The notes beneath the pieces were generated by a model. It did not search any database. It had not been told where the DNA came from and was given only the letters and a program-made list of their open reading frames with translations. The translations under genes were made by a program, and so were the position numbers. DNA of 64,000 nt from assembly GCA_041641305.1 (NCBI GenBank), contig JBEPYN010000001.1, forward strand, positions 416,001 to 480,000, in the 5' to 3' direction. How positions within the stretch are numbered: the first letter of the stretch is position 1; every line of letters begins with the position of its first letter. This stretch comes from Nitrososphaerota archaeon (GTDB lineage: Archaea > Thermoproteota > Nitrososphaeria_A > Caldarchaeales > Caldarchaeaceae). Shown one piece after another: positions 9,559-62,505 of this stretch.

Positions 9559-9561
9559 AAA

Positions 9562-9972: not shown

Positions 9973-10004
9973 GCTTAAGAATAGGTCATCTCATTTGAGA
10001 AGCC

Positions 10005-28880: not shown

Positions 28881-28959
28881 CGGAAATCCTCGAAGGTTCA
28901 GCGATAGCCGTCGGTAATGGGCCCATCAAAAATGAGAGAATAAAGGAAAACTTTTGACA

Positions 28960-31060: not shown

Positions 31061-31066
31061 AAACTC

Positions 31067-34946: not shown

Positions 34947-35856
34947 CTTTCCATCCTCTTTTCATTGACAGTGACAATTCATTTGGAGAATTGCGGCATC
35001 ATCGAAATTGACACCTTTCCATCCTCTTTTCATTGACAGAGAAACACCATCAAAAGAATACTCCTACCCGCCGAATACTACTTTCCATCCTCTTTTCATT
35101 GACAGTTCAACTTTTACGGCGAGATAGTGGCGTTCACAGTGGCCTTTCCATCCTCTTTTCATTGACAGTAACTTTTTTTGAAATGTTGAGAGTGTTATGC
35201 ATAAATTGTAAGAGCTTTCCATCCTCTTTTCATTGACAGGTAGCTAAGATGCTGTTGGGTGAAGCATGAATGGGGGGGTTGTTAGTCTTTCCATCCTCTT
35301 TTCATTGACAGCCGGAGGGTGGTGGGACGCCCTCCAGCACCTCTCCAAATGTCTTTCCATCCTCTTTTCATTGACAGTCTAATTTGCTACCAATGGGTGA
35401 ATGGCAGATATGTATACTTTCCATCCTCTTTTCATTGACAGGGCTGGGCAGGTTTACGCGAACAGTATCGAAGAGGTCTACGCCAACTTTCCATCCTCTT
35501 TTCATTGACAGAGGGTTGCGAAGCCTAAGCGTTGCCCAAAATGCATGAGGTGGTTGAACTTTCCATCCTCTTTTCATTGACAGGTTTACCGAAGTAACAG
35601 TGGTTTAGTGTATATGTATCTATATCTTTCCATCCTCTTTTCATTGACAGTTAACCGACATCATGAACGCGCTTAACACTTTGCAGACGAAGACTTTCCA
35701 TCCTCTTTTCATTGACAGTTTCTCTCGCCAGCCGCCTCAACCTCGACAAAGACTTCTGGATAATCTTTCCATCCTCTTTTCATTGACAGAACCAGAAGCT
35801 TGACAAGATTTCTTGGGCAATGGTTGAGAGACTTTCCATCCTCTTTTCATTGACAG
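34947..35856 (-). CRISPR. CRISPR array 2: 14 perfect 25-bp repeats (same repeat), 13 spacers
   Basis: Repeats from 34947 to 35856; possible decayed trailer repeat at ~34890-34914. Confidence 0.98.
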
Positions 35857-35950
35857 TGTGCCTGATTTCCGGAAATTTCAGGGAATTGGGTGATTTTGTC
35901 GGGTGAGGGTGTCGGGCGACGAATTTTTGGAGCCTCTATTTAAGTTCTAC
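35857..35950 (-). promoter_or_regulatory. CRISPR leader 2
   Basis: Homologous to leader 1; AGAACTTAAATAG BRE/TATA-like on - strand. Confidence 0.8.
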
Positions 35951-36145
35951 GTGTGTCTACGCCAATCCTCGGAAGCGGACCTATGCTAAAAGAAAAAACA
36001 CAGCCAAAACCCTTGGTTCATCACCTCCTCGACAAAAAATCGCGAAAGCCATCCCTGCGGCACACGTCTACCACCTTGGGCAAACCCCCAAATAAACACA
36101 ACAATCATATATAACCTCATCTCAAAAACACCGGAAACAAACAAA

Positions 36146-37045
36146 ATGATAATCCTCTATGACCTCATAGCCGAATGCAGCGACGATAAACTACTCATGA
36201 CAAGCCTCCCAACAGCCAGACTCAGAGGCCTCCTCGGACAATGCATAAAAGTCTACTCAAAAACCCACAACCTAAAACTCTACGAAAACTTCTTCAAACC
36301 CAGAAGAGGGATGGTGGGAAGGGACATTGCCAGAAAAATACCTACACCCAAACCCTACATAATCAACCCCCCAACACTACTCCACAGAGACACAATTCAG
36401 TTCAGACTCACTGTATTCGGACACGCCAACCAGCTCATGCCCCACATCCTCAAAGCAATAAAAAAAGAACACGGCAAACTGCAACTATTAGAAGCAACAA
36501 TAATAAACGACGTAACAGGCGAAAAATGGGAAATCACCGACGACGAAAAAAGAACACAACAACACGCAATAACATACCAAATGCTCCTCCAAAACACAAG
36601 ACAACACATCGAAGACAGAGAGAACTTAGACATAACACTGATGTTCCTCACACCCGTAAGACTAACCCGCGACGGCTCAGACATCAAACCCAACCAGCTA
36701 AAACCATCCGACCTCATACGCTTCGCAGCCCGACGCCTCTTCCTACTAGACTACCTATACTACTCAGCTGGTAGAACACTGCCCTTCAAGCTATCACCAG
36801 AAACCGTGAAAAAACTCACGGAATGCGCAGACTCCACAACCAATATAGAAACAACACTCAGCGAAAAAATCCTCAACCTCAAGCAAAAAACAAAAACACT
36901 CACCGGAAAACTCAAACTCAAAATCCAACATAAAGGAGAGGAGACGCTAAAGGCAGTCTTCCTGCTAAAAGCATGCGAATACCTAGGCATAGGAAAACAC
37001 ACAGCATACGGACTGGGAAAATACACACTAACATACAGCACATGA
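36146..37045 (+). CDS. cas6: CRISPR endoribonuclease Cas6
   Basis: LRGLLG, PKPYII, FLTPVRL, C-terminal GIGKHTAYGLG glycine-rich loop. Confidence 0.85.
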   Translation: MIILYDLIAECSDDKLLMTSLPTARLRGLLGQCIKVYSKTHNLKLYENFFKPRRGMVGRDIARKIPTPKPYIINPPTLLHRDTIQFRLTVFGHANQLMPHILKAIKKEHGKLQLLEATIINDVTGEKWEITDDEKRTQQHAITYQMLLQNTRQHIEDRENLDITLMFLTPVRLTRDGSDIKPNQLKPSDLIRFAARRLFLLDYLYYSAGRTLPFKLSPETVKKLTECADSTTNIETTLSEKILNLKQKTKTLTGKLKLKIQHKGEETLKAVFLLKACEYLGIGKHTAYGLGKYTLTYST

Positions 37046-50104: not shown

Positions 50105-50197
50105 CGTCTATTTAATCGTGACTTTGTCCACCGGCAACCCAATCCTATGGAGAACATGAAAAAACTAAATAAAACATCTCGGCAACTGGTTACACGG

Positions 50198-50274
50198 GCC
50201 CAGGTGGTATAGCCAGGTTAGCATCGCCGGCTGTCGCCCGGCGGACCCGGGTTCAAATCCCGGCCTGGGCGCCA
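50198..50274 (+). tRNA. tRNA-Asp(GTC), CCA encoded
   Basis: GCCCAGG...GCCGG-CTGTCGC-CCGGC...GGTTCAAATCC...CCTGGGC-G-CCA. Confidence 0.95.
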
Positions 50275-50314
50275 ATCATGAACATTTTAATTGCTTCGGA
50301 GGGTATCATAGATC

Positions 50315-51523
50315 ATGCGGGAAAGGCTTTGGGCCTCTAGGCGGGTTGCTGTCCCCGGTATTGCTTTGGCTACTTTAGCGGGGTTGTTGGGGGTTTTGCT
50401 CGGAGCATTTTGGCTGCTGTCTTTGTCTGGCTCAAGAATGTTCACTGCGCTTGTCATCCATCATCCCAAGCTGGTGCTCTATGGCTTTGTCTACACCTTC
50501 ATAGCCTCTGTAGCTGCCATACTGGTTCCGAGGTTCAGAGATTTTTCTCCGCAAAAGTATGTGAAGACGCGGCAGGTTTCGGTCTCTCTTCTCGCAGGAG
50601 GAGTTCTGATGTCAGTTTTGGGATATCCTTTCAATGTTCTTGGATTTTTGCTGGCATGCCTTGGAGCCTTGGTGTTGACCTTCTACACCGTGAAGGTTGT
50701 TGGCAGGCCGAGAGGATATCTCGCCCCAGCCGACCCCTTAATTATTCTCTCGATGATTTTGATGCCTGTCACGATAGCGGTTCACGGCTGGCTTGAGCTA
50801 TCGGGTTTCAACCCGTTTTCTAGAGAAGGAATACTGCAGCTCGGATTGTATGGTGCACCGGCCTCCATGGTCTTCGGCATAGGCATCAAGACCGTCCGCT
50901 TCCGCATAGACACTCTATTGCGAAGAGGTTTATCATGGATGCTTACCCCCACACAGCTCCTCACCGTTTTTTCCGCATCAGCGGCAGTGGTCACCGGAAA
51001 CCATCTCTACGAAACGCTATCATCTGTGTTTTTTCTCGCATCAACGGTTTTGTGGATTTTTTCTGTCGATGCTTTTCACAGGGTCACGAGTGGGGTGTTG
51101 GTTGAAAGGATGGCGGAGAGAGATAAAGTGAGATATCTCTATTTCTCTATGGTATTTGTTATTGCCTCGGCTTGGCTCATAGCGGCCGCCTTATTTGGAC
51201 TGCTCACACAGCTAACGAGGGAAATTCATCCGATGACATGGTACCTTTTCAGGGACAGCTTCATTCACTCTTTAACGGTAGGCTTCATAGCAAACATGAT
51301 ACTGGCATATTCGCCGATAATTCTCCCCAGCCTCTTCACAGGCCGCATACCATACAAGGGCCTGAGCTATGTGCCAGCTATCTTATTGAACATAGGAAAT
51401 GTGGCTAGAGTGGGATGGTTTCTATCGGGAGCGTTTCCGAACGTACTACTCACAGCAGTGGTTGCAATCGTGTACATCGCCTCGATATTCCTGACATTAG
51501 CCATGATGCATAACCTACGTTAG
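50315..51523 (+). CDS. NnrS-like polytopic membrane protein
   Basis: About 12 TM helices; HPKLVLYGF...ILVPRF and HSLTVGFIANMIL...P motifs. Confidence 0.55.
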   Translation: MRERLWASRRVAVPGIALATLAGLLGVLLGAFWLLSLSGSRMFTALVIHHPKLVLYGFVYTFIASVAAILVPRFRDFSPQKYVKTRQVSVSLLAGGVLMSVLGYPFNVLGFLLACLGALVLTFYTVKVVGRPRGYLAPADPLIILSMILMPVTIAVHGWLELSGFNPFSREGILQLGLYGAPASMVFGIGIKTVRFRIDTLLRRGLSWMLTPTQLLTVFSASAAVVTGNHLYETLSSVFFLASTVLWIFSVDAFHRVTSGVLVERMAERDKVRYLYFSMVFVIASAWLIAAALFGLLTQLTREIHPMTWYLFRDSFIHSLTVGFIANMILAYSPIILPSLFTGRIPYKGLSYVPAILLNIGNVARVGWFLSGAFPNVLLTAVVAIVYIASIFLTLAMMHNLR

Positions 51524-52056
51524 ATTTCGTCCGCGGCTTTCTCGAGCCTGTGATGCTCCTCCTCGCCTACCTCCCTCAGCTCCACCTCCTCATAGCATGC
51601 GTTGGCTTGGCCGATATCTTCTCCAGTGGCCACGTTCTCGCCCATGGGAAATAGAATATCGTTCTCTTTCGCAATGTGTTGTCTTATCAGCCCGATGTAG
51701 TCTTCGCAAACTGTCAACACCTTCTCCAGCCCCTGGCCCTCGTTGAAATATGTCTCGGCGGCTTTCTCCAAACGGCTTATAAGCTCTCGGCCCAATTGAT
51801 GCTCATATAACATCACTCCAATAGGCCCTCCATTCCGCGGTATCCCCCTCTTCTCCATGCATGGAAAAAGACACCGCTCCTCCTTGCCATGGTGGCATCT
51901 ATCAGTAAAAAGTTTCGCAAATTCTATAAACTTCTCGAGACTCTCGCGCTCGATACGCCCACTCAGACGCCATTCCACAACTCTGTTCTCAAGCCGAGCC
52001 ACAGCTCTCAAAATAACCTCATGATCTTTCAACAGAGAACTTGTTAAACTCTCCAA
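51520..52056 (-). CDS. Hemerythrin (HHE)-domain protein
   Basis: DHEVI, HHGKEE..LFP, EHQLGR, HIAKENDILFP; probable TTG start at 52056. Confidence 0.88.
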   Translation of the reverse strand: MESLTSSLLKDHEVILRAVARLENRVVEWRLSGRIERESLEKFIEFAKLFTDRCHHGKEERCLFPCMEKRGIPRNGGPIGVMLYEHQLGRELISRLEKAAETYFNEGQGLEKVLTVCEDYIGLIRQHIAKENDILFPMGENVATGEDIGQANACYEEVELREVGEEEHHRLEKAADEI

Positions 52057-52148
52057 GGTATCATGCAGTAGTTTCCGCACGATATAAATCAGTCGCGGCA
52101 AGCCTCCAACCCATTTTTTTCTGAATAGTCATGTCTATGCTCCGAAGC

Positions 52149-52285
52149 TTAAACAGGCTCTATGTTGCATTTGATTATGCCTTTTTCATATGGTTTCGTC
52201 GCGTGTTTTATACCCCTATTTGTGTATTATGACTTAGCTTAATAGACGCATTGGGGTGACTCGGGCCGGCTCCCGACACCCAGCA
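52149..52285 (-). pseudogene. Decayed duplicate of the 3' end of the gene at 55857-56426
   Basis: Aligns with 55857-55996 (e.g. tagacgcattggg.tgactcgggcc.gctcccgacacccagca) with stops and indels. Confidence 0.85.
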
Positions 52286-52397
52286 TCTAGAGGAGTGCAG
52301 AGAAACTTAACAAACGCACAAGGGCGAGACATGCTGCAGTACTTTTAATCAATGGAGCTTTTTATCATCTAAATATAGGTCTGTAGGGTTTACTGGT

Positions 52398-52970
52398 GTG
52401 GGGTTTGCTGAGTTTATCCGAGATGTTTTGCGGCATGGTGATGTGGGGAAGGTTTTCGCCGTATCTTCGGCTGTTTTTGCGCTGGTTTATGTCTTCGGGG
52501 TTGGAATGGTTTTCCAGCTTCCGTTTGCGCTTCCTCCATCTTTTACCACTCCTTCGGTTGATGTGGTGTTGGATGGGCCGCTGGGACAAGTTCCATTGGT
52601 GACAATTTACGTTAACAGCCGCTGGGCTTTCTCCTTCAACCCCGAGGCTCTCACAGCCTTAACCGCTTTGTCGATATTGTTTGGCTTAAGCATGGCTGCC
52701 ACACTCTACGCAGGGAGATGCTCAGCATGCAACGTAGCCAAAAGAATACATCTATCTTGGGCTGCTGTGCTCCCCTCATTTTTCAGCTTCTTCACATGCT
52801 GCGGAGGAGGAGTAGTATCAAGCATCTTAATCGCATTAGGCATGGGTCTCTCGCTGCTGCAGGACTACGGCAGACTGTTCACCATAGCTTCGGCCTCGGC
52901 TCTTGCCGCAAACCTATACATCACCTATAGAAGAGTTGCGCGAGTGTCTAGAACATTCCATAAAATATAG
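52398..52970 (+). CDS. Hypothetical membrane protein with Cys motifs (CSAC, TCCGGG)
   Basis: Hydrophobic helices and Cys clusters. Confidence 0.6.
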   Translation: MGFAEFIRDVLRHGDVGKVFAVSSAVFALVYVFGVGMVFQLPFALPPSFTTPSVDVVLDGPLGQVPLVTIYVNSRWAFSFNPEALTALTALSILFGLSMAATLYAGRCSACNVAKRIHLSWAAVLPSFFSFFTCCGGGVVSSILIALGMGLSLLQDYGRLFTIASASALAANLYITYRRVARVSRTFHKI

Positions 52971-53037
52971 TAGGTCACACAAGATTTGCAACATTTCAGA
53001 TTTTTGTTGAGAGGAAATAACTTTTGATGTGCCGCGG

Positions 53038-53988
53038 TTAACCTGCAGTCAACATATCTGCAATCCGGAGCCAGTCGTCCTCTGTTAGAGTCCCAAACCT
53101 TTTCTCATAAACTATGCTGCCGTCAACAGATATGCCGAAAACGGTTTCCTGGCTTATCACCCGCAGAGAAACAAGGAAGTCGACGTTGGGTAGTGTTACT
53201 ATCCAGTCGCTGTGTGCGTTGTGCTGTTCGAGAAATCGCGTTATTTTTTCAACAGTGTCTCCTGGGTCGAAGCTTGACAAAAAAACGGTCACCTTCTCTC
53301 TCATTGACTCATAGGCTCTACTGAGTGTTGTAATGTTTTTGCTGCAGGTCGGACACCAAGTCGCGAAGAAAACGAGCACCAATGGTTTACCTCTTTTGAG
53401 AGCCTCTGAAACCGTGGTTACGTTGTTGTGCAAGGTTTTCAGAGGTATGTTGAAGGCATTGTGGACATCACTAACCTCACTATGCTGATGGCCCTCCTGC
53501 TTTTCCCCATCGGTAAACTTTTTTAACACCACATCCCACCCCATCACCTCTCCACCAAACTTACCACCAAAGTCCAGAGCATCTGAGAAGGATTTGAACG
53601 CAATAACCCCGTGTCTCATAGGTGTCATGACAGACGAGCCCTTCACATACCATGCGACTTTTGCATCAACCTTCTCTGACGACAAATAGTCGTAAACGGC
53701 CGCTCGCTTTACCTCCGCGTTCTTAACCATGTTCTGAACAGGTGGAATAATCCCCATGTGGGATAGGTAATGTATCATCATGCATCCAACGTCGTCGTAG
53801 AAAAGGGTCTGATTGTCTACGATGAGTTCGGCGGCAAACCTCAGGTCCCTGATTTCCATTCCACAGTAGCTGCAGCTTCTTCCGATGGGGCCAGGTTCGT
53901 CAGCCACCGGAGAGGTTCTTAAAAAAACGATTGAGACTACAGCCGTGGCCAGACAAGCTGAAGCAGCGAGAAAAAGCCTTCTCTTCAA
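53038..53988 (-). CDS. NosL-like Cu chaperone domain fused to a thioredoxin/TlpA-like domain, N-terminal signal
   Basis: CSYCGM...FYDDVGCM...TPMRHGVIAF (NosL); FFATWCPTC (Trx). Confidence 0.82.
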   Translation of the reverse strand: MKRRLFLAASACLATAVVSIVFLRTSPVADEPGPIGRSCSYCGMEIRDLRFAAELIVDNQTLFYDDVGCMMIHYLSHMGIIPPVQNMVKNAEVKRAAVYDYLSSEKVDAKVAWYVKGSSVMTPMRHGVIAFKSFSDALDFGGKFGGEVMGWDVVLKKFTDGEKQEGHQHSEVSDVHNAFNIPLKTLHNNVTTVSEALKRGKPLVLVFFATWCPTCSKNITTLSRAYESMREKVTVFLSSFDPGDTVEKITRFLEQHNAHSDWIVTLPNVDFLVSLRVISQETVFGISVDGSIVYEKRFGTLTEDDWLRIADMLTAG

Positions 53989-54045
53989 GACAGTCTACTA
54001 CCTTCGCCACCGCTTTACTCGGCAGAACATGGACAAGTCAGCGCG

Positions 54046-55059
54046 TTACTCTTCAATGATGATTAACCCTATCATCCCCGCGTCGGCGTGGCTAACCACA
54101 TGGCAGTGGAATAAGTAAACACCTGGCTTGTTGTATACAAGGATGACTGTGTCGGCGGCGCCCGGTACGAGGGGCACAATCTGCGCTGGCCAACTTCTTC
54201 CACCCAGCACATACTGTGAGCGATGGTCTCCCACATGGGCGTGGAAGCTGTGGAAAAGGTCCCCTATGTTGATTATGTGGAACCTAAGCCTCTCACCGAG
54301 CTTGGCCTTGAAGACGGGCAGCGACTTGTTGAAGAGCTGCGAAACCCCCTGTAACCCCTTGAGCTGTGGGTAAATTGTGCTCTTGCCCAAGAACACCTTC
54401 TCAAGCTCCGGCTCACCGCCTGGGACACCCATGCTGTTCATGATGTAGAAGGGACGTGGACCTGTGCCTACAATAGCTCCTCTCACCGCAGGTGTTTCAG
54501 CCATGAAGACCACAAAGTTCCGGGAAGGCGGCTCATCTATCTCGTCAACGATTATGGCCCCGTACAATCCCATAAGCATATGGTCAACAATCCTTAGGCC
54601 TCCGTCGGCTGAGTGACAGTGGTAGTACCATATGCCTGCCTTAGTCGCTGGCCATTCGTAAACCCATTCACCGCCCGGGGGAATCATCGAGCCAGCTCCA
54701 ACTCCGGTGATTATGTTTACCTGGCTGCCGTCATGCTGAAGGTCATAATATGGGAGATGTGGGTGGAGACTGTGGGTTAGATTAAGCCTGTTGATGGCCC
54801 TGACCCTGATGATATCACCTACCTTCGCGTAAAGAGTCGGGCCAGGAACTGTTCCGTTATAGGTCCACGCATGCCAGACGACGCCGGGAGCCAACTCTAT
54901 TTCAGCAGGCTCTATAATGATGGTGTACTCTCTAATGTTGGCCTGCTGTGCCACGCCGAAAAGATTCGGAAACCATGTCGGTGCCCAAAAGATGGCTGTT
55001 GCATAACCCATCAAAAAGCCTGCAGCAATCAACGCAGCCAGTATATATGCGGCTCTCAT
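54046..55059 (-). CDS. Two-domain multicopper oxidase (exported)
   Basis: YNGTVPGP, HSLHPH, YHCH...HMLMGL; HSFHAH, FHCHVVSHADAGM. Confidence 0.88.
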   Translation of the reverse strand: MRAAYILAALIAAGFLMGYATAIFWAPTWFPNLFGVAQQANIREYTIIIEPAEIELAPGVVWHAWTYNGTVPGPTLYAKVGDIIRVRAINRLNLTHSLHPHLPYYDLQHDGSQVNIITGVGAGSMIPPGGEWVYEWPATKAGIWYYHCHSADGGLRIVDHMLMGLYGAIIVDEIDEPPSRNFVVFMAETPAVRGAIVGTGPRPFYIMNSMGVPGGEPELEKVFLGKSTIYPQLKGLQGVSQLFNKSLPVFKAKLGERLRFHIINIGDLFHSFHAHVGDHRSQYVLGGRSWPAQIVPLVPGAADTVILVYNKPGVYLFHCHVVSHADAGMIGLIIIEE

Positions 55060-55147
55060 GGTTCGGGCGAATAAAGGCTCCGATATAATCTTAAGCACGG
55101 GAAATAGACATAAATGCTAAAAAACCCTTACATATGAGGGTTCAATA

Positions 55148-55762
55148 ATGGAGGAGGCCGTCCTCAGGCTCAGGGTCGAGTGCCCAACCATCGCTGAGAT
55201 AATGAAGTATTCCTCATCGGTTGAAATTTTGAGCTGCAAACCCTTTAACAACTCCGACGGCACCAGCACGATCCTAACTTTTAGAACCAAATTGTCTACC
55301 TCACAGCTACAAACACATTTTCAGAGCAACCCCCAAGTGTTGGAGGCGCAGTTCAGAAAAATAGGTCGTGAAGGAGGAGTTGCAGTAGTCACATCCTTCA
55401 AATGTCCCTGCACAAAAACGGGAATACTAAACACCCATGTCCTCTCCATAAAAAAGGACGGAAACTGGATAACCTTTCACATAGTTTTCATCAACAAACA
55501 GGAGAAGGAGAAGATTATAAGGAACATTGACGCAACAGGAATAAAATACGAGCTTGAGACAACAAGATTCTTCACCACAAAAAATATTCTAACCACTAAA
55601 CAGGAGGCGGTTTTAAGACACGCCCTAGAAAAAGGCTTCTTCAGGCATCCAAGACCCATGAACATCACTCAAATGGCGAAACACTTCGGCGTTTCAGCCT
55701 CATCCTATACCGAAACGCTGAAAAAAGCATTAGAGAAAATAGTTGCGAAAGTTCTTTTTTGA
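55148..55762 (+). CDS. Bat/HTH_10-family transcriptional regulator
   Basis: LTTKQEAVLRHALEKGFF.HPR...MAKHFGVS.SS..ETLKKA. Confidence 0.85.
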   Translation: MEEAVLRLRVECPTIAEIMKYSSSVEILSCKPFNNSDGTSTILTFRTKLSTSQLQTHFQSNPQVLEAQFRKIGREGGVAVVTSFKCPCTKTGILNTHVLSIKKDGNWITFHIVFINKQEKEKIIRNIDATGIKYELETTRFFTTKNILTTKQEAVLRHALEKGFFRHPRPMNITQMAKHFGVSASSYTETLKKALEKIVAKVLF

Positions 55763-55856
55763 CAGCTGCTTTCAAGCTCTTTCACAGATCTAAAGATAAC
55801 CTCTGTAGACCGTAACTGTTTATTACTACAAGCTTGCCAAATGGGGAGTTGCTGAG

Positions 55857-56426
55857 CTATAGCGGCTCTATGTCGCATTTGATGATGCCTTTTCCTATGG
55901 TTTCGTTGCGTGTTTTGTACCCGTATTCGTGTATTATGGCTTTGAAGGCTTCGTAGACGCATTGGGTTGACTCGGGCCTGCTCCCGACACCCAGCACCGC
56001 TATCTCATATTGCTTCATCTGCTTCATCTTAACCTCGAGACGCTTAAGTGGAAAGAACTGCCCCACAGTTTTCGCGAGGTCGAAAAGCTCCTCGATACTT
56101 GTAGCATAGACCTTGAGCACTTTGCCAACATCTCTTCCAAGCTGTCTGAACCTTTCAAGAAGCTTCTCCCTGTTCACCATGTATAGGTCTGCTATCAGCA
56201 TGTCCATAAACTCGGAAGGCAGAACCACCGCGTCCAAATCCTTCAAGAGAACATGTGCCCTGAAAAGTGCTTTTACATCCTGAGGCTCGATGTTTTCCTT
56301 CATCATTTCCACGAAGGTTTGGAGAATCTGGTTGGTCAATGAATAAAGTGTCATGTGCTTAGCTTCAGCAAGTTTTGACAGTGATTCAGCTATTTGGGCG
56401 TCGACGGCGAGGGAGGCTCTAACCAT
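55857..56426 (-). CDS. Conserved hypothetical protein (RHH-like N-terminus)
   Basis: 189-aa ATG ORF; N-terminal RASLAVD...LAEAKHMTLYSL resembles ribbon-helix-helix. Confidence 0.6.
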   Translation of the reverse strand: MVRASLAVDAQIAESLSKLAEAKHMTLYSLTNQILQTFVEMMKENIEPQDVKALFRAHVLLKDLDAVVLPSEFMDMLIADLYMVNREKLLERFRQLGRDVGKVLKVYATSIEELFDLAKTVGQFFPLKRLEVKMKQMKQYEIAVLGVGSRPESTQCVYEAFKAIIHEYGYKTRNETIGKGIIKCDIEPL

Positions 56427-56457
56427 AGTGCCGACCTATACCCATGGTCTATTAAGC

Positions 56458-57717
56458 TTAACGGGTGAATATTTGATGAAAACGCAGCGACTTTTCGAAG
56501 GTTATTTCCTCGAAGTTGATGCCTAGTGACCGGGCGTAGCGGTATGACTCCAATATCTCCTCTTCTGTTGGATAACGTGCCATATCGCTGTATCTTTTGT
56601 CGAAACGTGGATCGGATGGGTTGCAGTAGCAGTCTGGGTGATACTGGTCCATGATATTGACAGGTGTGTCGGGCATGTTCTCGGCTATCCATCGGAGCGC
56701 CGGCTTGGTGCAGCATTCCACGTGACCCGGCATAACTAGGTGCCTGATTACAATGTCCTCGCCCCAATCATATATCAGCTTATGGTTTTGTGTAACCGTC
56801 TCCAAATACCATGGTGTTCTCGAGAGCCAGATAGCGCATTTGTCGTTCCCGAATTTGAAGTCGGGCAGCCAGATGTCGACGATTTCGCGGAGTATTTTCA
56901 TCGTTTCGCCGCTCATGTACATGTTTGAGTTCCAGAGGATGGGGATGTTGAACTCGCCTTCGTAGAAGGCGTTTCTTGTGTCGAGGCTGTAGGGATAGTA
57001 GATGTCCGCCTTGGCGTCCATAGCCTCCGTATATGTTTCTTTGAAAAATCTGAGCATGCTTATGGCTTCGACGATGGTGTGGAGATGTATGGTTGGTTCT
57101 CCGCCGACGAGGTTGATATTGTGACATCCCTCCATACGGAGTTGCCACATGGCCCACGCCAACATCTGAGGTGTGAAGACTATGCCGTTGTCCTTGTCAT
57201 GCGATATGTCAGCGTTTTGGCAGAATACGCACCGCATGTTGCATGATGTGAAGAATATTGTTCCGGACCCTTTTGTACCCCTTATCGGAAGCTCCTCGCC
57301 CCTGTGGTGAAAATAGCTTGAGACACGTGTGACTGATTCGAGCTGGCAAGTCCCATGTTTGCCGCCTGCCGCCCTGTCAACCCGACAGTTCCAGCGGCAG
57401 AAGTTACAGTGCCTAAGCATCTTTTTAACCAACGCAACTTTGACATCGAGGAAACTGGGCTTTTCTACCCTCAGCTCTTTAAATGAGATCGCCCCTTCCC
57501 TAATCCCTTTGCGGATCCTGTGGAATTCTTCAGCCGCTCTGTCATGTAGGCGCCAGAGCTCCTCCTCCGTCAACCCGTCCAGCTCATCACCGACGGGGAT
57601 GCGCCGGCATATCAGATACTTCGCCGGCAACCTGTTCACCGACACCTGGAAATACCAGTCAAGCTTATTCCGTATCTCCGGTGTTCTCCAGACAGACAGA
57701 GACTCGAAGGCCGCCAT
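56458..57717 (-). CDS. Radical SAM protein, PflX-like
   Basis: SGTIFFTSCNMRCVFCQN CxxxCxxC, NINLVGGEPT, DFKFGN, RHLVMPGH. Confidence 0.88.
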   Translation of the reverse strand: MAAFESLSVWRTPEIRNKLDWYFQVSVNRLPAKYLICRRIPVGDELDGLTEEELWRLHDRAAEEFHRIRKGIREGAISFKELRVEKPSFLDVKVALVKKMLRHCNFCRWNCRVDRAAGGKHGTCQLESVTRVSSYFHHRGEELPIRGTKGSGTIFFTSCNMRCVFCQNADISHDKDNGIVFTPQMLAWAMWQLRMEGCHNINLVGGEPTIHLHTIVEAISMLRFFKETYTEAMDAKADIYYPYSLDTRNAFYEGEFNIPILWNSNMYMSGETMKILREIVDIWLPDFKFGNDKCAIWLSRTPWYLETVTQNHKLIYDWGEDIVIRHLVMPGHVECCTKPALRWIAENMPDTPVNIMDQYHPDCYCNPSDPRFDKRYSDMARYPTEEEILESYRYARSLGINFEEITFEKSLRFHQIFTR

Positions 57718-57779
57718 TCCAACAATGTGTTAGCTTCGGTGAACTTATGCTTTTATCCAGCCAGGGGTAACACGGCCCC

Positions 57780-58799
57780 ATGTACACGGTCAGCGTCATA
57801 AAAGGTGATGGCATAGGGCCGCATATTGTTGAGGAGACTTGTCGTCTTGTAGGTTGGCTTTGCCAAAGTCTGGGTGTTGAGCTGGAGTTTACCGATGCTC
57901 CTGCGGGTGACACGGTCAAAGAGGCTACGGGCTCTGCTCTGCCACCAGAGTCGCTGGAGACGATCATGAAGAGTGACGCGTGCCTGAAAGGCCCCGTCGG
58001 AGAAACCGCGAGAGACGTGATCGTTTACCTAAGGCAGAGGCTGGATCTTTACGCCAACATCAGGCCTTTCAAGAACATGCCCGGCGTCAAGAGCAAATGG
58101 ACCGGTGTTGACTTCGTGATCGTGAGGGAGAACACTGAAGATGTCTACAAATCTGTTGAAGATGTTGGCGTAGATTATGCCGTTGCGCTGCTGATTGTTT
58201 CGCGGCGTGCGGCCGAGAGAATCGCACGTGTTGCCTTCGAAATGGCTGAGACGAGGAGACGTAAAGTGACTGTTGTCCATAAGAGTAATGTGGTCAGGGC
58301 TTACGGATTTTTCCGCGACATCTGCTTTGAGGTTGCCAAGAATTACCGCGATGTGGTTGTCGAAGAGATGTATGTGGATAATGCCGCTTATCAGATGGTT
58401 TTGAACCCTCATCAGTTCGACGTAATACTCACACCCAACATGTTTGGGGACATTTTGAGCGACCTGGCAGCTGGTGTGGTCGGCACGATTGGTGTTGCTG
58501 GGTCGGCAAACGTCGGCGACCGCTTCGGTTTATTTGAGCCTGTTCACGGCTCCGCTCCAACACTAAACCCTGAGCAGGCCAACCCGACTGGACAATTACT
58601 CGCGGCGAAGATGATGCTAGACTGGTTGGGCCGCTTCAAAGTGGAAAAGCGTTTGACAGAGGCTGGAGAGATTCTCGAAAAAGCGGTGTACAGTGTATTG
58701 GCGGAGGGTCGTGCCCTAACTATGGACCTCGGCGGCTCGGCTACATGCAGTCAATTTGTTGAAGAGGTGCGGAAAAAAGCCGAGGCTCTCCTTAGGTGA
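57780..58799 (+). CDS. Isocitrate/isopropylmalate dehydrogenase family (LeuB or homoisocitrate dehydrogenase)
   Basis: [33 protein letters not shown]. Confidence 0.85.
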
Positions 58800-58805
58800 G
58801 GGCCT

Positions 58806-59789
58806 GTGGTCGCAGGAGTTTTCGAGGCGCCAGCCAGCTCAGCCAACCTCGGGCCCGGATACGATGTTTTCTCCCTGGCCCTGGGGAAGCCTAGGCTGAG
58901 GCTCGGCATCGTAGCCGAGGACAGCGACGAATTTGAGGTTATGATTAAAGCTACTGGAAAATACGGATCGGAAATACCTACAAACCCCGATGAGAACGCC
59001 GCAGCAAAAGCAGCCGAAGCTGTGCTACGCTATAAAAAGATAAGGAAAAAACTGTCAATAACCATAGATGCATCTATTCCACCTCGGAAGGGACTTGGAG
59101 CAAGCGGGGCAGAGGCAGCGGCCGCAGTGTATGGGCTTAACACTCTGCTTGGATTGGGGCTGACGAGGGAGGAAATGGTTGAACTTGCTTCAGCGGCCGA
59201 GCCTGGGCAACATGCGGACAACGTCGCGGCATCTCTTCTAGGAGGGTTTGTCATAACACATAGAGACGAATTCGGGTTTAGCGTCCTCTCACTGAAACCG
59301 CCCGAAAACCTCGGAATCGTGCTGATAATACCTGATGTCAAAAAAAAGTCGACCGCCGCAGCGAGAAAAGCTGTTCCGCAAAATATTGCAACTTCTGTTC
59401 ACGTCAGGATAGCGGCGGAGACCGCTCTCGCGGCCGCGGCGATGGCCCAAGGTGATGTTGACCTTTTTCTAAGAGCTGTTCTCATGGACCCGTTTGTCGA
59501 GCCTGCGAGAGCCGATGCAGGGGTTTACGGCAGTGGCTACACTGCTCAGAAACTTTTACAGGAGAAGCAAGAGCTATACAGAAGGTTTGGCGTTTCACTG
59601 GTTATAAGCGGGGCGGGGCCTTCACGCCTGATTCTGTTTAACAGGACAAGAAACATGGGAAAAGTGGGGGAGAGGCCCGTGGACAAAGCTTTGGAGAAAG
59701 TGGTTCAGGGGCTGGATGAAGATGAAATACGCGTTCTTGAAATATTTGAAACTTTTCCAAACACAACAGGATGTGTAAAAATTTCCTGA
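58806..59789 (+). CDS. thrB: Homoserine kinase
   Basis: APASSANLGPGYD, PPRKGLGASG, HADNVAASLLGG, ISGAGPS. Confidence 0.92.
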   Translation: MVAGVFEAPASSANLGPGYDVFSLALGKPRLRLGIVAEDSDEFEVMIKATGKYGSEIPTNPDENAAAKAAEAVLRYKKIRKKLSITIDASIPPRKGLGASGAEAAAAVYGLNTLLGLGLTREEMVELASAAEPGQHADNVAASLLGGFVITHRDEFGFSVLSLKPPENLGIVLIIPDVKKKSTAAARKAVPQNIATSVHVRIAAETALAAAAMAQGDVDLFLRAVLMDPFVEPARADAGVYGSGYTAQKLLQEKQELYRRFGVSLVISGAGPSRLILFNRTRNMGKVGERPVDKALEKVVQGLDEDEIRVLEIFETFPNTTGCVKIS

Positions 59790-59808
59790 AAAAGACGCGT
59801 TCGGTCTT

Positions 59809-60945
59809 CTACACCTCCTCCAATAGCTGGAAAACCTTCGCAAGCTGGTTGACCGACGCCAGTATGAGGTCTACTTCGTTCTCAAACATATAGTCTAAAC
59901 GTCGGTAGTCGTTGTCCGTAACACCGGCGAAGAGCAGGTTTTCCTGGCTGGTCAACGCTCGTTGATACATTATGTGGTCTTCGGCCGAGTTTCCTACATA
60001 TAGCTTGGGACCTTCGCCGCCGAGTCCTTTGAGAGCTTCGAGAAGTGGGATGGGGCTTGGTTTCTCGAGATAACTGTATTTGACAGGGTCTATGATGATG
60101 TAGTCGCTGATGAACATGCATGCGTCCTTCACGAAATACCGGCTCAGCTCACCGAGCGTTCTCCAAGTCTCCCATGAACCACGGCCCGTGCATAAGCCCA
60201 GCCGTATTCCACGCATCGATAGTTTTTCGAGAGTGTCGCGACTGACTAAGAGTTTTTCTTCATCAAGCTTTCCGCTAAATGAAAAGAATGGCCCCGCGTT
60301 CCTCACCTGTGGGACATTCGCCGAGCCGTAGAAAGCCTCGTCAAAAATAGTGGTTAACGGGCTTTCGCCATATCGTCCACCAGGCTTCAACACCTCCTTC
60401 ACCATCTTGGTCAAGGTTGTGTCAATGCCCATTTTTTCCTCCAAGGACGGTAGGTCAGCCGCCGAACCTGAAAAAGGCGCGACCTTTCCGGACAACTCTC
60501 TCAACCAGTTTTCCACCACCGTGTTTGAGACAGCACCGCGGTCTTGTATGGCTCCCAGCCACTCAGTGAAACTTTTCGCCCTCAGCTCATTCACTCTCTC
60601 GCCAACTTGGTCATCCAGTTCAGCCGAGATTCTATCGACAAGCCATTCAACCAAAAGCTGAATAGTGTTGGCGTCGTTGTTGAAGCTGCCTATTGCCCTT
60701 ATGTCGTAGATTGTTTCCTGTTTGATGGATGAGACATCTAGCGTGTAGCCCGTCAACACGCGTGTCAAATAAACAGTTACTTCTTGGATAACCTTGTCAT
60801 AGGAGGTTCTCTCGTCAATCAACACACCATCGCAGTCAAAAATTATACCACATACCCTAGAGAGAGATTCTAACGATGAGAACTTTACGTAGACTGTGCC
60901 CACACTCGTCCGGTACTCCAAGTATTTTCTCTCAGGAGGTTCCAA
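59809..60945 (-). CDS. HAD-superfamily hydrolase
   Basis: FDCDGVL, CTGR, KPSP, YVGNSAED. Confidence 0.8.
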   Translation of the reverse strand: MEPPERKYLEYRTSVGTVYVKFSSLESLSRVCGIIFDCDGVLIDERTSYDKVIQEVTVYLTRVLTGYTLDVSSIKQETIYDIRAIGSFNNDANTIQLLVEWLVDRISAELDDQVGERVNELRAKSFTEWLGAIQDRGAVSNTVVENWLRELSGKVAPFSGSAADLPSLEEKMGIDTTLTKMVKEVLKPGGRYGESPLTTIFDEAFYGSANVPQVRNAGPFFSFSGKLDEEKLLVSRDTLEKLSMRGIRLGLCTGRGSWETWRTLGELSRYFVKDACMFISDYIIIDPVKYSYLEKPSPIPLLEALKGLGGEGPKLYVGNSAEDHIMYQRALTSQENLLFAGVTDNDYRRLDYMFENEVDLILASVNQLAKVFQLLEEV

Positions 60946-61016
60946 GAGCTTCCCAGAATGCTGTTACTGATGATGCATCTTAAAGATTTTTAAGCCGTTC
61001 CGAGCGTTGGACACAT

Positions 61017-61382
61017 ATGTCTAAGGTGAGAACCATAGGCTGGGATGACTTGGAATGGGAAAGAGTGCGAGACGATTTTCTCAGAAAAATAGTTTCCGGA
61101 GAGAAGGTTATGGTTGCGAAGCTGTTGCTTAAGAAGGGGGCCCACGTGCAGTTGCATAGACATGAGAATGAGCAGTTGACGGTGGTTCTTGAGGGCAACA
61201 TCAGGTTCTGGTTTGACGACAACACAGAGCTTGTCGCGAAGACCGGCGAAGTGGTCATAATTCCGTCGAATGTGGGACATGCTGCCGAAGCCCTCGAGGA
61301 CACAGTAACTTTTGACATTTTTGCACCTCCGCGAGAAGATTGGCTAACCGGGCGAGACCACTACCTACGTAACAGGACCTAG
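61017..61382 (+). CDS. Cupin-domain protein
   Basis: HRHENEQ...IPSNVGH...DIFAPPRED. Confidence 0.88.
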   Translation: MSKVRTIGWDDLEWERVRDDFLRKIVSGEKVMVAKLLLKKGAHVQLHRHENEQLTVVLEGNIRFWFDDNTELVAKTGEVVIIPSNVGHAAEALEDTVTFDIFAPPREDWLTGRDHYLRNRT

Positions 61383-61723
61383 GTTTTTTCGTAGAAAATC
61401 CATTCTTTCATCAGTCGTTCGTGCCAGTCAATCGTCTCCTCTATGACCGTGTAAAGCTCCGTTAGCTGCGCTATCTTCACCGCGAGCAGATGATAGCACA
61501 TAGGTTTTTCGTGGCTCATAACCCTGAAGAAAAAGTCTTCACAACTGCAGTAACCGGCGTCAGGTAAAACGAGATAGTCTCGTGTTTTTCCCACAACCAC
61601 CCACCTCACCCTATCACCCGGCTTGAAAACATACTTCTTGACACGCTTCATTTTTACAGTTTCGTAGGCCTCTTGGAAAAGCTCAGGATTCTCTCTCTCA
61701 AGTTTAGAAAGCTCTGTGTTCAA
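61379..61723 (-). CDS. SWIM zinc-finger protein
   Basis: YCSCEDF...CYHLLA. Confidence 0.85.
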   Translation of the reverse strand: MNTELSKLERENPELFQEAYETVKMKRVKKYVFKPGDRVRWVVVGKTRDYLVLPDAGYCSCEDFFFRVMSHEKPMCYHLLAVKIAQLTELYTVIEETIDWHERLMKEWIFYEKT

Positions 61724-62505
61724 CTGACCAGCCTCCGCAGCTCAGCGAGCGTGCCGAGAAAGGTGCCGTCGAGTCCTATAACCTCTGCTTCATCGAGGTC
61801 GAATGCGCCCGACCTCAGCAAAGGCCCCCTCGTTAGACTGCTTTGGCTCAGCTCTGTGACAGACCGTCCCTGCATGATTTTGTTGAAGCTGGGCATGATG
61901 ATGAGAAAGATTTCAGACGGGGACGGTGGGGCATCTGTTTTGAAGAGCTTTGTGAATAGCTTTCGTCTATCACCCCTTATCCGCAGCCAGACACCCATTC
62001 TTACTGATGAGCCGCCTCTTCCTATCCTCAGTACAGGATGTAGGTGACCAGTCACAACAACATCCATGGACACCACGTCGATAGAGGGCTTTACGTGACC
62101 ATGCGTAAACCCAACAGACTCCTCCTCCACAATAAACCCGTCAGCCGGACAAAACTTGGCGTATCCAGATAAAACCTTCTCAATCTTTCCGTCGTGGTTG
62201 CCCGGTAGGACAATCAATTCATCTACAAGTCGCTTTACCGGGTTAACAAATTTTGGGACAATTTCATACTCTAGCCTTGAGAGGCCTTGAACGTTGTGTT
62301 TAAGGTCACCGACCACGATCAGTCTCTTCGCACCCGTTGACTCCACGACGTTAACCAACTCGTCGACGATTTTGAGGCTCTGCAGCGGGACTCGGACGCC
62401 TTTGCTGCGAAGCTCTTCCTCAAACCCGAGATGAAGGTCCGCGACTGCAAGTGTTTTCACCGGTTTTTCGAGCAGAAGCGCCCCATGGCCCTCGACGAGC
62501 TTCAT
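61720..62505 (-). CDS. Metallophosphoesterase (calcineurin-like, SbcD/Mre11-related)
   Basis: ADLHLG, GDLKH, GNHD, THGH, GHLHP. Confidence 0.88.
   Translation of the reverse strand: MKLVEGHGALLLEKPVKTLAVADLHLGFEEELRSKGVRVPLQSLKIVDELVNVVESTGAKRLIVVGDLKHNVQGLSRLEYEIVPKFVNPVKRLVDELIVLPGNHDGKIEKVLSGYAKFCPADGFIVEEESVGFTHGHVKPSIDVVSMDVVVTGHLHPVLRIGRGGSSVRMGVWLRIRGDRRKLFTKLFKTDAPPSPSEIFLIIMPSFNKIMQGRSVTELSQSSLTRGPLLRSGAFDLDEAEVIGLDGTFLGTLAELRRLVS

What the first reader, a model, noticed from the sequence alone, without database searches (positions are those of the whole stretch)
52149..55996. Copper-oxidase cassette bracketed by a duplicated 3' end of a protein-coding gene
Seen: 52149-52285 is a decayed direct copy of 55857-55996, the last ~46 codons of the 55857-56426 gene, including the stop position (EPV* vs EPL*). 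It has synonymous changes plus new stops and indels. Between the copies lie four genes: a membrane Cys protein, NosL-Trx, the multicopper oxidase and the HTH regulator. Inference: a ~3.7-kb cassette entered by recombination within the gene and replaced its 3' end, an att-like scar with no integrase nearby.
Basis: partly seen in the sequence, partly recalled or inferred. Interest (0 to 1): 0.55.

Follow-up and report, generated by a model that had tools for sequence, protein, structure and literature searches.

The report
Foreign copper cassette duplicating a gene's end
Four copper-handling genes from an unsampled relative were spliced into the tail of a conserved archaeal gene, duplicating that gene's last 44 codons, and the organism's own scattered versions of the same four genes are gone: a tidy case of whole-module gene replacement, not a new kind of mobile element.

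Summary
52149-52285 is a decayed copy of 55857-55996, the last 46 codons of gene X (55857-56426, minus strand). The two copies show 116 matches, 13 mismatches and 2 indels. There are only two copies in the genome.

Three sister-clade genomes have the predicted empty site, where X directly precedes the hemerythrin gene.

Both copies carry substitutions specific to this lineage. So the gene's own 3' end was duplicated rather than swapped for a foreign one. Only the last sense codon and the stop are new. The distal copy then decayed neutrally, and the insertion postdates the split from the sister clade.

The cassette holds four genes: a membrane Cys protein, NosL-Trx, a two-domain multicopper oxidase and an HTH_10 regulator. 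It is a xenolog. Relatives keep HTH_10-MCO-NosL-Trx and the membrane gene at two other loci. In this genome both loci are deleted, leaving short remnants.

No tyrosine or serine recombinase is found in the genome, the cassette has no terminal inverted repeats, and no donor was found.

The geometry fits Campbell-type integration of a circle carrying the 133-bp segment (about 0.5). A one-step break-repair insertion with target duplication is the main rival (about 0.35). Independent metagenome contigs bridge both junctions. Interest is moderate.

The parts
50198..50274 (+). tRNA-Asp(GTC). It marks the ancestral neighbour of X: in six other genomes of the genus X abuts or overlaps it convergently.
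   Evidence: ARAGORN. It is 98.7-100% identical in relatives and lies 0-70 nt from X, or overlaps X by 22 nt, in G002, G003, G004, G005, G007 and G008.
50315..51523 (+). NnrS-like membrane protein. It is part of an older two-gene insertion between X and tRNA-Asp that is shared with the sister clade.
   Evidence: Weak NnrS Pfam hit, below the curated cut-off. It is 89% identical in G009 and was not found beside X in the six more distant genomes of the genus that were examined.
51520..52101 (-). Hemerythrin-domain protein. In the sister clade it is the gene directly downstream of X.
   Evidence: Pfam Hemerythrin, E 1.6e-19. In G009 and L075 it follows X after about 45 nt.
52149..52285 (-). Copy A: the displaced, decaying original 3' end of X (codons 144-189 plus stop). 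It is still joined to the native downstream flank.
   Evidence: It keeps the native Val codon, the TAA stop and the conserved 22-nt downstream block seen in G009. It has 2 premature stops and 2 frameshifts.
52286..52397 (.). Left non-coding end of the inserted block, upstream of the membrane gene. Junction J1 lies at 52285/52286.
   Evidence: Homology to X and to G009 stops at 52285. There is no terminal inverted repeat and 0 nt of microhomology at J1.
52398..52970 (+). Membrane Cys protein (190 aa, motifs CSAC and CCGGG). Family unnamed.
   Evidence: No Pfam or NCBIfam family. Single-copy homologues at 45-59% identity in 9 of 11 other genomes of the genus. The native copy's site is deleted in this genome.
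53038..53988 (-). NosL domain fused to a thioredoxin/Sco-like CxxC domain. Presumed copper chaperone and thiol-reductase for the oxidase.
   Evidence: Pfam NosL 1.1e-12, AhpC-TSA 2.1e-9, Redoxin 2.8e-8. Only 58% identical to G009's copy.
54046..55098 (-). Two-domain multicopper oxidase (350 aa).
   Evidence: Pfam Cu-oxidase_3 1.5e-21 and Cu-oxidase_2 1.6e-17. It is 90% identical in protein to G009's copy, but synonymous sites are saturated (pS 0.73).
55148..55762 (+). HTH_10 transcription regulator, divergently transcribed from the oxidase.
   Evidence: Pfam HTH_10 3.9e-15. At most 42% identical to any of the 75 genomes of the order. No close relative in the other collections searched.
55763..55863 (.). 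Right non-coding end of the inserted block. It includes X's new last sense codon and stop (55857-55862). Junction J2 lies at about 55863/55864.
   Evidence: Homology of the X side to G009 begins at 55863. B ends CTA TAG where A and G009 have GTT TAA.
55864..55996 (-). Copy B: the functional duplicate. It is still the 3' end of X and is under purifying selection.
   Evidence: Its only differences from the state shared by A and G009 inside the repeat are two synonymous Tyr codons.
55857..56426 (-). Gene X: conserved 189-aa archaeal protein of unknown family, always downstream of a radical SAM gene in this genus.
   Evidence: Found in 24 of 39 related genomes. No Pfam or NCBIfam family. The Atlas gives only leads, to ribbon-helix-helix and AF_0136_C.
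56458..57717 (-). Radical SAM protein, the syntenic upstream partner of X. Context only.
   Evidence: Pfam Radical_SAM. Synteny in 7 genomes.

Best explanation
**What happened.** On the branch leading to this genome, after it split from its sister clade, a 3.58-kb block of four functionally linked copper genes was inserted two codons before the end of gene X. The genes are a membrane Cys protein, NosL-Trx, a two-domain multicopper oxidase and an HTH_10 regulator. The block came from an unsampled lineage of the same genus or family.

**Effect on X.**
- The insertion duplicated about 133 bp of the host's own sequence, X codons 144-187.
- The gene-proximal copy (B) stayed in frame. It gained one new codon and a stop from the insert and remains under selection.
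- The distal copy (A) stayed attached to the native stop and to the region upstream of the hemerythrin gene. It has decayed neutrally.

**Effect on the native genes.** The incoming block made the organism's own genes redundant. These were HTH_10-MCO-NosL-Trx at one locus and the membrane gene at another. Both were deleted, leaving remnants of 30-60 nt.

**Shown.**
- The insertion, its polarity and its rough date.
- The host origin of both repeat copies.
- The foreign origin of the cassette.
- The two deletions.

**Inferred.**
- The order of events, gain before loss.
- The mechanism of entry. The geometry is that of a Campbell-type single crossover between X and a circular DNA that carried the same 133 bp next to the cassette (about 0.5 in all). 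This splits roughly evenly between an integrase that was later lost and host homologous recombination with DNA from a conspecific.
- That retention of copy A serves hemerythrin expression.

The confidence given (0.85) is for the insertion and xenologous replacement. The entry mechanism stands at about 0.5.
For: **Empty site.** Window 50196-52285 and 55863-62000 align to adjacent parts of G009 that overlap by 134 bp (L023 8523-8656). The gene order there is rSAM-X-hemerythrin-NnrS-tRNA-Asp. Two metagenome contigs of the G009 clade show the same.

**Polarity.** A keeps G009's GTT TAA and the downstream block. B continues into the gene body.

**Host origin and date of the duplication.**
- Three-way site patterns over 141 columns are: A=B differing from G009, 16; B=G009 differing from A, 10; A=G009 differing from B, 5 (3 of them in the last 6 nt); all three different, 2.
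- A and B share lineage-derived states at codons 146, 147, 165, 169 and 171 against 3 sister and 6 outgroup sequences.
- The B branch (2-4 changes) is much shorter than the G009 branch (16-18 changes), binomial P 0.0007-0.002. This rejects a duplication older than the split.
- A's changes are mostly non-synonymous or nonsense (8 of 11-12) and B's are synonymous.
- A's branch is 0.08-0.10 substitutions per site. The dS between G000 and G009 orthologs is 0.28-1.06.

**Xenolog.**
- X and rSAM trees put G000 and G009 as sisters (100/100) with terminal branches of 0.03-0.07. For NosL-Trx the terminal branches are 0.56 and 0.46, and for HTH_10 1.52 and 0.46, and the two genomes are not resolved as sisters.
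- Protein identities to G009 are 37% (HTH_10), 58% (NosL-Trx), 45-51% (membrane protein) and 90% (MCO). Flanking genes are 88-91% identical.
- MCO pS is 0.73 against 0.51 for rSAM.

**Native loci deleted.**
- G009 holds HTH_10-MCO-NosL-Trx between orthologs of G000 C2 71313 and 71242. G000 has about 70 bp there. That stretch ends in a remnant of a NosL-Trx 3' end that resembles G009's copy, not the cassette's.
- G009's membrane gene (L072 7970-8542) corresponds to about 123 bp in G000 C1 632288-632411. G002 shares both positions.
- All four cassette proteins are single copy in G000.

**Arrangement independently assembled.**
Against: **Donor.** No donor or close relative of the cassette was found in the collections that give context. 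The source lineage and its gene order are therefore unknown.

**Entry mechanism.** The mechanism is not shown.
- No recombinase of the tyrosine, archaeal-integrase or serine families is found in the genome.
- No circular or excised form appears in the contigs laid (no joints).
- X is not a recurrent target. No other of the 24 related genomes with X, nor the 2 metagenome contigs, has a second 3'-end copy.

**Weaker points.**
- The remnant alignments for the HTH_10 and membrane-gene 3' ends are weak.
- The dating assumes a rough molecular clock over only 133 sites.
- Metagenome contigs that bridge the junctions may come from one widespread population.
- Gain before loss is assumed, not shown.
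Confidence: 0.85

Rival explanations
1. One-step, recombinase-independent insertion. During repair of a break or a stalled fork in X, linear foreign DNA was joined in or copied in. This could be end joining at a staggered break, or a template switch out to the foreign DNA and back. Re-entry was 133 bp upstream of the exit point, which produced a long target-site duplication. Selection kept this event because it preserves both X and the region upstream of the hemerythrin gene.
For: - Both repeat copies are the host's own allele and were about identical at insertion.
- No recombinase is found in the cassette or the genome, and there are no terminal inverted repeats.
- The site is used only once among the genomes examined.
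- A real integrase island in the sister genome looks quite different: a 21-bp att, a tRNA target, and an integrase next to the att.
Against: - There is 0 nt of microhomology at J1.
- The block contains exactly four intact genes with no truncated neighbours, which is unlikely for a random fragment unless it was trimmed later.
- The insert supplies an in-frame stop one codon after the junction, as integrative elements do in PMC6563490 (passages on NitEve-E2).
- By my recollection, target duplications of over 100 bp around foreign DNA are rarely documented in prokaryotes. I did not search for this.
Confidence: 0.35
2. Degenerate integrase-mediated island. A plasmid or virus whose attP was the last 133 bp of X, as with e14 or phage 21 at icd, integrated at X. 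It later lost everything except its copper cargo.
For: - Direct repeats bracket the insert and the target gene's reading frame is restored with a new stop.
- The empty site is present in relatives.
- Tyrosine integrases occur sporadically in the family, in 4 of 17 genomes.
- Among thaumarchaeal integrated elements, 14 of 68 sit in 3'-distal parts of protein genes, and one figure legend lists a multicopper oxidase gene (SufI) on a cryptic integrated element (PMC6563490, passages read).
Against: - There is no integrase in the cassette or anywhere in the genome.
- Only 379 nt of the 3.58-kb block is non-coding, spread over five spacers, so there is no room for gene remnants.
- The repeat is 2-8 times longer than the archaeal att sites quoted (PMC6563490, passages) and about 6 times longer than the local example.
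- The gene-attached copy is not a diverged allele as in icd/icdC (PMC13626634, passages).
- No fragment of X or of the cassette was found in viral contigs.
Confidence: 0.25
3. The cassette at X is ancestral to G000 and the sister clade together. The empty sites arose by deletion through recombination between the two repeat copies.
For: - Direct repeats can mediate exact deletion.
- The region between X and tRNA-Asp is plastic. L076 has lost NnrS and the first 110 codons of hemerythrin.
Against: - A and B share five lineage-specific derived codons that are absent from all three sister sequences.
- The branch asymmetry (2-4 changes against 16-18) has P of 0.002 or less.
- The sister genome keeps the native cluster at the position shared with outgroups, and G000 carries deletion scars there.
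Confidence: 0.04
4. Intragenomic relocation of the organism's own copper cluster, or an assembly chimera.
For: - The native sites are empty and the cassette is single copy.
- GC content is not deviant, 0.43-0.54.
Against: - MCO synonymous sites are saturated against the sister genome. HTH_10 is 37% and NosL-Trx 58% identical to the sister's, against about 90% for flanking genes.
- The remnant at the old site resembles G009's gene, not the cassette's.
- Contigs from other studies bridge both junctions.
Confidence: 0.03

Closest known systems
e14 (and phage 21) integration into icd of Escherichia coli, leaving the icdC 3'-end pseudogene
   Same: The insert sits in the 3' end of a protein-coding gene. 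The gene stays intact. A displaced C-terminal fragment lies as a pseudogene at the far end of the insert (PMC13626634, passages read).
   Different: - There the element encodes its own site-specific recombination system and is a 15-kb prophage.
- There the gene-attached end is the element's diverged allele. The phage 21 details are recalled, not read.
- Here there is no recombinase, the insert is a cargo-only block of 3.6 kb, and both copies are the host's own allele.
Thaumarchaeal integrated elements in 3'-distal regions of protein genes, e.g. NitEve-E2 of Nitrososphaera evergladensis
   Same: An archaeal host, an insertion near the stop codon, and the original stop replaced by one supplied by the insert. 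In both cases this was verified by an empty site in a related species (PMC6563490, passages read).
   Different: The att there is 13 bp (median 17 bp for the phylum), and the paper states that cryptic integrated elements carry an integrase by definition. Here the repeat is 133 bp and there is no integrase.
tRNA-Ser integrase island in the sister genome G009
   Same: Same genus, a lineage-specific insertion, and an empty site in the other genome.
   Different: That island is 7.15 kb. It has a roughly 21-bp repeat at the 5' part of tRNA-Ser(GCT) and a 355-aa tyrosine integrase beside the att.
Campbell-type 'pop-in' integrants of non-replicating circular DNA in archaeal genetics; homology-facilitated illegitimate recombination in bacteria (both recalled, no paper read)
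   Same: A single crossover in a short homologous segment leaves that segment as direct repeats on both sides of the insert. No site-specific enzyme is needed.
   Different: Those are laboratory constructs or transformation experiments. A natural circle carrying 133 bp of X is hypothetical here.
Xenologous (non-orthologous-locus) gene displacement
   Same: A foreign homologue is acquired at a new locus and the native copy is lost.
   Different: Here four genes at two separate native loci were displaced together by one compact block.

Membership tests
Integrase-mediated integrated element (att-flanked island, e14/icd type) | Direct repeats (attL/attR) flank the insert | tested here: met
   Repeat 52156-52285 against 55864-55996, 116 of 134 columns identical.
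Integrase-mediated integrated element (att-flanked island, e14/icd type) | Empty site with a single att copy in related genomes | tested here: met
   G009, L075 and L076.
Integrase-mediated integrated element (att-flanked island, e14/icd type) | Element encodes a site-specific recombinase | tested here: not met
   None of the four genes is a recombinase. PF00589, PF16795 and PF00239 are not found in the whole 99.3%-complete genome, while the same searches found PF00589 in 14, PF00239 in 12 and PF16795 in 3 of the 14 control genomes.
Integrase-mediated integrated element (att-flanked island, e14/icd type) | att length in the range known for archaea (8-69 bp, PMC6563490 passages) | tested here: not met
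   About 133 bp. The local integrase island has about 21 bp.
Integrase-mediated integrated element (att-flanked island, e14/icd type) | Excision or a circular form is detectable | tested here: inconclusive
   No joints in the contigs of 4 runs. Contigs drop rare variants, and raw reads were not available.
Transposon or casposon | Terminal inverted repeats and a transposase or Cas1, with a short target duplication | tested here: not met
   Ends align no better than shuffles (score 6.0 against a mean of 6.8; 441 of 500 shuffles reach it). There is no transposase in the block. The only Cas1 in the genome is at C1:832 kb, about 2 kb from short direct repeats at 834.5-836.6 kb. I read it as CRISPR-associated but did not examine it.
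Multicopper oxidase (54046-55098) | Cupredoxin domains Cu-oxidase_3 and Cu-oxidase_2 above Pfam cut-offs | tested here: met
   77.1 bits (cut-off 21) and 64 bits (cut-off 20.4). Copper-ligand residues were not checked one by one.
NosL copper chaperone (53038-53988, N-terminal part) | NosL domain above the Pfam cut-off | tested here: met
   48.9 bits against a cut-off of 24. The C-terminal thioredoxin-like fold also passes (AhpC-TSA 37.8 bits against 26). Copper binding was not tested.
Xenologous gene displacement | The incoming homologue is phylogenetically discordant with host genes | tested here: met
   Trees and identities. MCO pS is 0.73 against 0.24-0.57 for host orthologs.
Xenologous gene displacement | The native copy existed and was lost | tested here: met
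   Syntenic gaps with remnants at C2 71243-71312 and C1 632288-632411. The remnant signal is good for NosL-Trx and weak for HTH_10 and the membrane gene.

The most novel reading that the evidence does not exclude
The cassette entered without any site-specific recombinase. A host break-repair or replication template-switch process would have captured foreign DNA with a target duplication of over 100 bp, preserving both the interrupted gene and the promoter region of its downstream neighbour. This would be a natural 'copy-in' route for archaeal gene acquisition that leaves att-like scars. Because the membrane Cys protein was displaced together with the oxidase, its chaperone and its regulator, all four would form one co-adapted module whose parts cannot be mixed between lineages.
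Probability: 0.3. Interest if true: 0.6.

Novelty: new variant of a known kind. Interest (0 to 1): 0.42.

Why it matters
**A datable example of whole-module replacement.** This archaeon swapped a whole functional module rather than a single gene. One compact foreign block displaced four native genes at two loci. All the scars are still readable: the duplicated gene end, two deletion remnants, and the empty site in sisters.

**Two uses.**
- It cautions that att-like repeats at a gene's 3' end need not mean an integrase element. Here the repeat is the host's own sequence and no recombinase is found in the genome.
- The joint displacement gives genetic evidence that an unnamed membrane Cys protein works with the two-domain multicopper oxidase, its NosL-Trx chaperone and its HTH_10 regulator. 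That is a testable functional link for a protein family with no annotation.

**Limit.** It does not reveal a new class of element.

Tried and rejected
**Donor search, all negative.**
- HTH_10 protein in metagenome contigs: none.
- HTH_10 in 5.8 billion proteins: only its own cluster.
- HTH_10 in 75 genomes of the order: at most 42% identity.
- HTH_10 in genome contigs: one 30% hit in an unrelated bacterium.
- X, NosL-Trx and the membrane protein in viral contigs: none.

**Run X9.**
- It holds many short contigs 90-99% alike across about 52.35-56.5 kb. Of 126 contigs laid, 19 are at 99% or more, 45 at 95-99% and 62 at 90-95%. So related cassette variants exist in nature.
- Only the 100%-identical contig covers 51500-52334, and nothing covers 55790 or 55860. 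So the context of those variants cannot be read. Missing cover proves nothing.
- One contig diverges left of 52352. Its 30-letter loose end was not found in 20 related genomes.

**Other leads that went nowhere.**
- No joints, so no empty-site or circular form, in the 4 runs laid. Contigs cannot show rare forms.
- GC content of the cassette is not deviant.
- I suspected that the low dS of NnrS (0.29) marked a recombinant left flank. Other ortholog pairs span 0.28-1.06, so I rejected this.
- No terminal inverted repeats and no microhomology at J1.
- Family searches for X and the membrane protein gave nothing above threshold in Pfam or NCBIfam. The Atlas gave only unnamed archaeal clusters and weak leads to RHH and AF_0136_C.
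- In genus g2 an HTH_10 gene (27% identical) lies convergent to X. I considered it a hint of a donor-like arrangement, but it is too distant to use.

Full report
**1. Observation**

The window is ordinary archaeal chromosome. It holds arginine and lysine biosynthesis genes, ATP synthase subunits, a type III CRISPR-Cas locus, NADH-dehydrogenase subunits and a TackOD1-domain protein. No mobile-element family was found among 64 ORFs.

Gene X (55857-56426, minus strand, 189 aa) has no Pfam or NCBIfam family.

Its last 46 codons recur at 52149-52285:
- Over 134 aligned columns there are 116 matches, 13 mismatches, a 4-nt deletion and a 1-nt insertion.
- The whole 1.66-Mb genome holds just these two copies (E 5e-39).
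- In a self-BLAST this is the only direct pair of 85% identity or more among the 36 short same-contig pairs listed.

Four intact genes lie between the copies: a 190-aa membrane Cys protein, a NosL-thioredoxin fusion, a 350-aa two-domain multicopper oxidase, and an HTH_10 regulator.

Contigs from other studies bridge both junctions:
- X5: one contig covering 51500-56328, with 12 differences and one 5-nt gap.
- X3: two contigs covering 51500-53287 and 54651-56328.
- X9: one contig across the left junction.

The arrangement is therefore not an assembly artefact.

**2. Empty site**

X occurs in 24 of 39 related genomes. The closest is G009, a single-contig genome with 90% protein identity.

In G009, window 50196-52285 and window 55863-62000 align to adjacent stretches that overlap by 134 bp (L023 8523-8656). 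The gene order there is rSAM, X, hemerythrin, NnrS, tRNA-Asp. Two metagenome contigs of the same clade (L075, L076, about 90% nucleotide identity to G009) also have a single copy and no cassette.

None of the other 24 related genomes with X, nor these two contigs, carries a second 3'-end copy.

**3. Which copy is which, and when**

- Copy A keeps the sister clade's Val codon, its TAA stop and a conserved 22-nt block downstream.
- Copy B continues upstream into the gene. It ends in a new Leu codon and a TAG stop supplied by the insert.

Three-way site patterns over 141 columns:

| Pattern | Sites |
|---|---|
| A = B, G009 differs | 16 |
| B = G009, A differs | 10 |
| A = G009, B differs | 5 (3 of them in the last 6 nt) |
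| All three differ | 2 |
| Gap columns | 5 |

With three sister-clade and six outgroup sequences, codons 146, 147, 165, 169 and 171 carry states unique to this lineage and shared by A and B. Both copies therefore descend from this lineage's own allele.

A's private changes are mostly damaging. Eight of 11-12 are amino-acid changes or stops, and there are two frameshifts. B's private changes inside the repeat are two synonymous Tyr codons.

The B branch (2-4 changes) is far shorter than the G009 branch (16-18 changes), binomial P 0.0007-0.002. That fits a duplication on the G000 branch and rejects one older than the split.

A's neutral branch is 0.08-0.10 substitutions per site. The dS between G000 and G009 orthologs is 0.28-1.06. 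Under a rough clock, the event falls in about the last quarter to third of the time since the split.

The gene's 3' end was therefore duplicated, not replaced by a foreign version.

**4. The cassette is foreign and displaced native genes**

Relatives carry the same kinds of genes elsewhere. G009 has HTH_10, MCO and NosL-Trx between orthologs of G000 contig C2 positions 71313 and 71242. G002 has them at the same position, and G003 and G008 nearby.

In G000 that interval is about 70 bp. It ends with a decayed stretch that aligns to the last codons, the stop and the downstream flank of G009's NosL-Trx, and not to the cassette's NosL-Trx.

The membrane Cys protein is single copy in 9 of 11 other genomes of the genus. 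G009's copy (L072 7970-8542) sits where G000 C1 632288-632411 has about 123 bp. G002 shows the same neighbour gene. All four cassette proteins are single copy in G000.

The cassette proteins are far too different from G009's to be vertical orthologs:

| Protein | Identity to G009 |
|---|---|
| HTH_10 | 37% |
| NosL-Trx | 58% |
| Membrane Cys protein | 45-51% |
| MCO | 90% |
| Flanking genes (for comparison) | 88-91% |

Even the MCO is saturated at synonymous sites, with pS 0.73 against 0.24-0.57 for host orthologs.

In trees, X and rSAM join G000 and G009 with 100/100 support and terminal branches of 0.03-0.07. NosL-Trx and HTH_10 give terminal branches of 0.46-1.52 and do not resolve the two genomes as sisters.

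GC content is unremarkable. This fits a donor within the same genus or family. No donor was found.

**5. Mechanism**

What is shown:
- One lineage-specific insertion.
- About 133 bp of host sequence as direct repeats.
- A new stop one codon past the junction.
- No terminal inverted repeats, and 0 nt of microhomology at the left junction.
- No tyrosine, archaeal-type or serine recombinase in a 99.3%-complete genome.
- One Cas1 gene, at C1:832 kb, about 2 kb from short direct repeats at 834.5-836.6 kb in the self-BLAST. I read it as CRISPR-associated but did not examine that locus.

Integrases do circulate in the family, in 4 of 17 genomes. G009 has a 7.15-kb island at tRNA-Ser(GCT) with a roughly 21-bp att and an integrase beside it. 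That local positive control differs from the copper cassette in target, repeat length and content.

Published archaeal att sites are also short, and integrated elements carry integrases. Insertion into 3'-distal parts of protein genes, with a stop supplied by the element, is nevertheless known (PMC6563490, passages read). The e14 icd/icdC case has the same geometry, but the element-borne allele there is diverged (PMC13626634, passages read).

My weighting, by inference:

| Mechanism | Probability |
|---|---|
| Campbell-type single crossover with a circle carrying the 133-bp segment | about 0.5 |
| (of which) integrase since lost | about 0.25 |
| (of which) host homologous recombination with conspecific DNA | about 0.25 |
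| One-step break-repair or template-switch insertion with target duplication | about 0.35 |
| Other | remainder |

Copy A may have escaped the deletion that removed the native loci because it carries the region upstream of the hemerythrin gene. The 22-nt block conserved with G009 begins in X's last sense codon and spans its stop. This is inference only.

**6. Function**

By family membership, the block encodes:
- a two-domain multicopper oxidase;
- a NosL-type copper chaperone fused to a CxxC thioredoxin-like domain;
- an HTH_10 regulator, transcribed divergently from the oxidase.

From the sequence the oxidase looks membrane-anchored, but this was not tested. The unnamed membrane Cys protein was displaced together with the other three although its native gene lay at a separate locus. 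I read this as evidence that it is part of the same maturation system, but this is not shown.

**7. Verdict**

- The insertion reading is supported, and the 'replaced 3' end' reading is not.
- The att reading remains open.

The case is a new variant of a known kind: an island-like insertion into a gene's 3' end. It stands out for three things: the host-derived 133-bp duplication, the absence of any recombinase, and the concerted displacement of four native genes at two loci. Interest is moderate.

Noticed in passing
window 23967-25019 (ORF 24104-25069, minus strand): A gene of about 1 kb with no Pfam family. It has four diverged copies in this genome (C1 about 440.0-441.0 kb, C1 515.9-516.8 kb, C2 462.0-463.0 kb, C2 518.3-519.3 kb; 67-81% identity). 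G009 has a copy at a site that is empty in G000 (G009 395694-396761, between G000 C1 22607 and 22604). It may be an unrecognised insertion-sequence-like element.
   Followed up: partly
G009 C1:382207-389357 (L081/L082): A 7.15-kb island absent from G000. It is inserted in the 5' part of tRNA-Ser(GCT) with a direct repeat of about 21 bp and a 355-aa tyrosine integrase next to the att.
   Followed up: yes
window 50198-52148, and loci L059, L060, L061, L024, L025, L026: In six more distant genomes of the genus, X ends 0-70 nt from the convergent tRNA-Asp gene, or overlaps it by 22 nt. The hemerythrin and NnrS-like genes between them occur only in G000 and the G009 clade. This spot has therefore taken two successive insertions.
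   Followed up: partly
L076 10594-10957: One sister-clade metagenome contig has lost NnrS and the first 110 or so codons of hemerythrin. Only the hemerythrin 3' part remains between X and tRNA-Asp.
   Followed up: no
window 26722-37045: A type III CRISPR-Cas effector locus: Cas10 with an HD domain, Csm2-like, RAMP proteins, Cas6 and a Cas_APE2256 (Csm6-type) protein.
   Followed up: no
L057 (G012) 11330-12680 and L058 (G015) 9018-10400: In another genus of the family, a distant HTH_10 regulator (27% identical) lies convergent to X. A cupredoxin-like ORF lies about 5 kb away. This resembles the HTH_10 and X arrangement created by the insertion here.
   Followed up: partly
window 52352 and 53004 (run X9): Contigs of related cassette variants (90-99% alike) diverge from the window left of 52352 and right of 53004. 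This suggests a different context or gene order around the membrane gene in those variants.
   Followed up: partly
L044 (G002 C4:59000-72208): In G002 the membrane Cys gene lies only about 6-7 kb from the NosL-Trx/MCO/HTH_10 cluster. Orthologs of G000 contig C1 (about 631-632 kb) and contig C2 (about 69-72 kb) are contiguous there. A rearrangement therefore separates these regions in G000 and G009.
   Followed up: no
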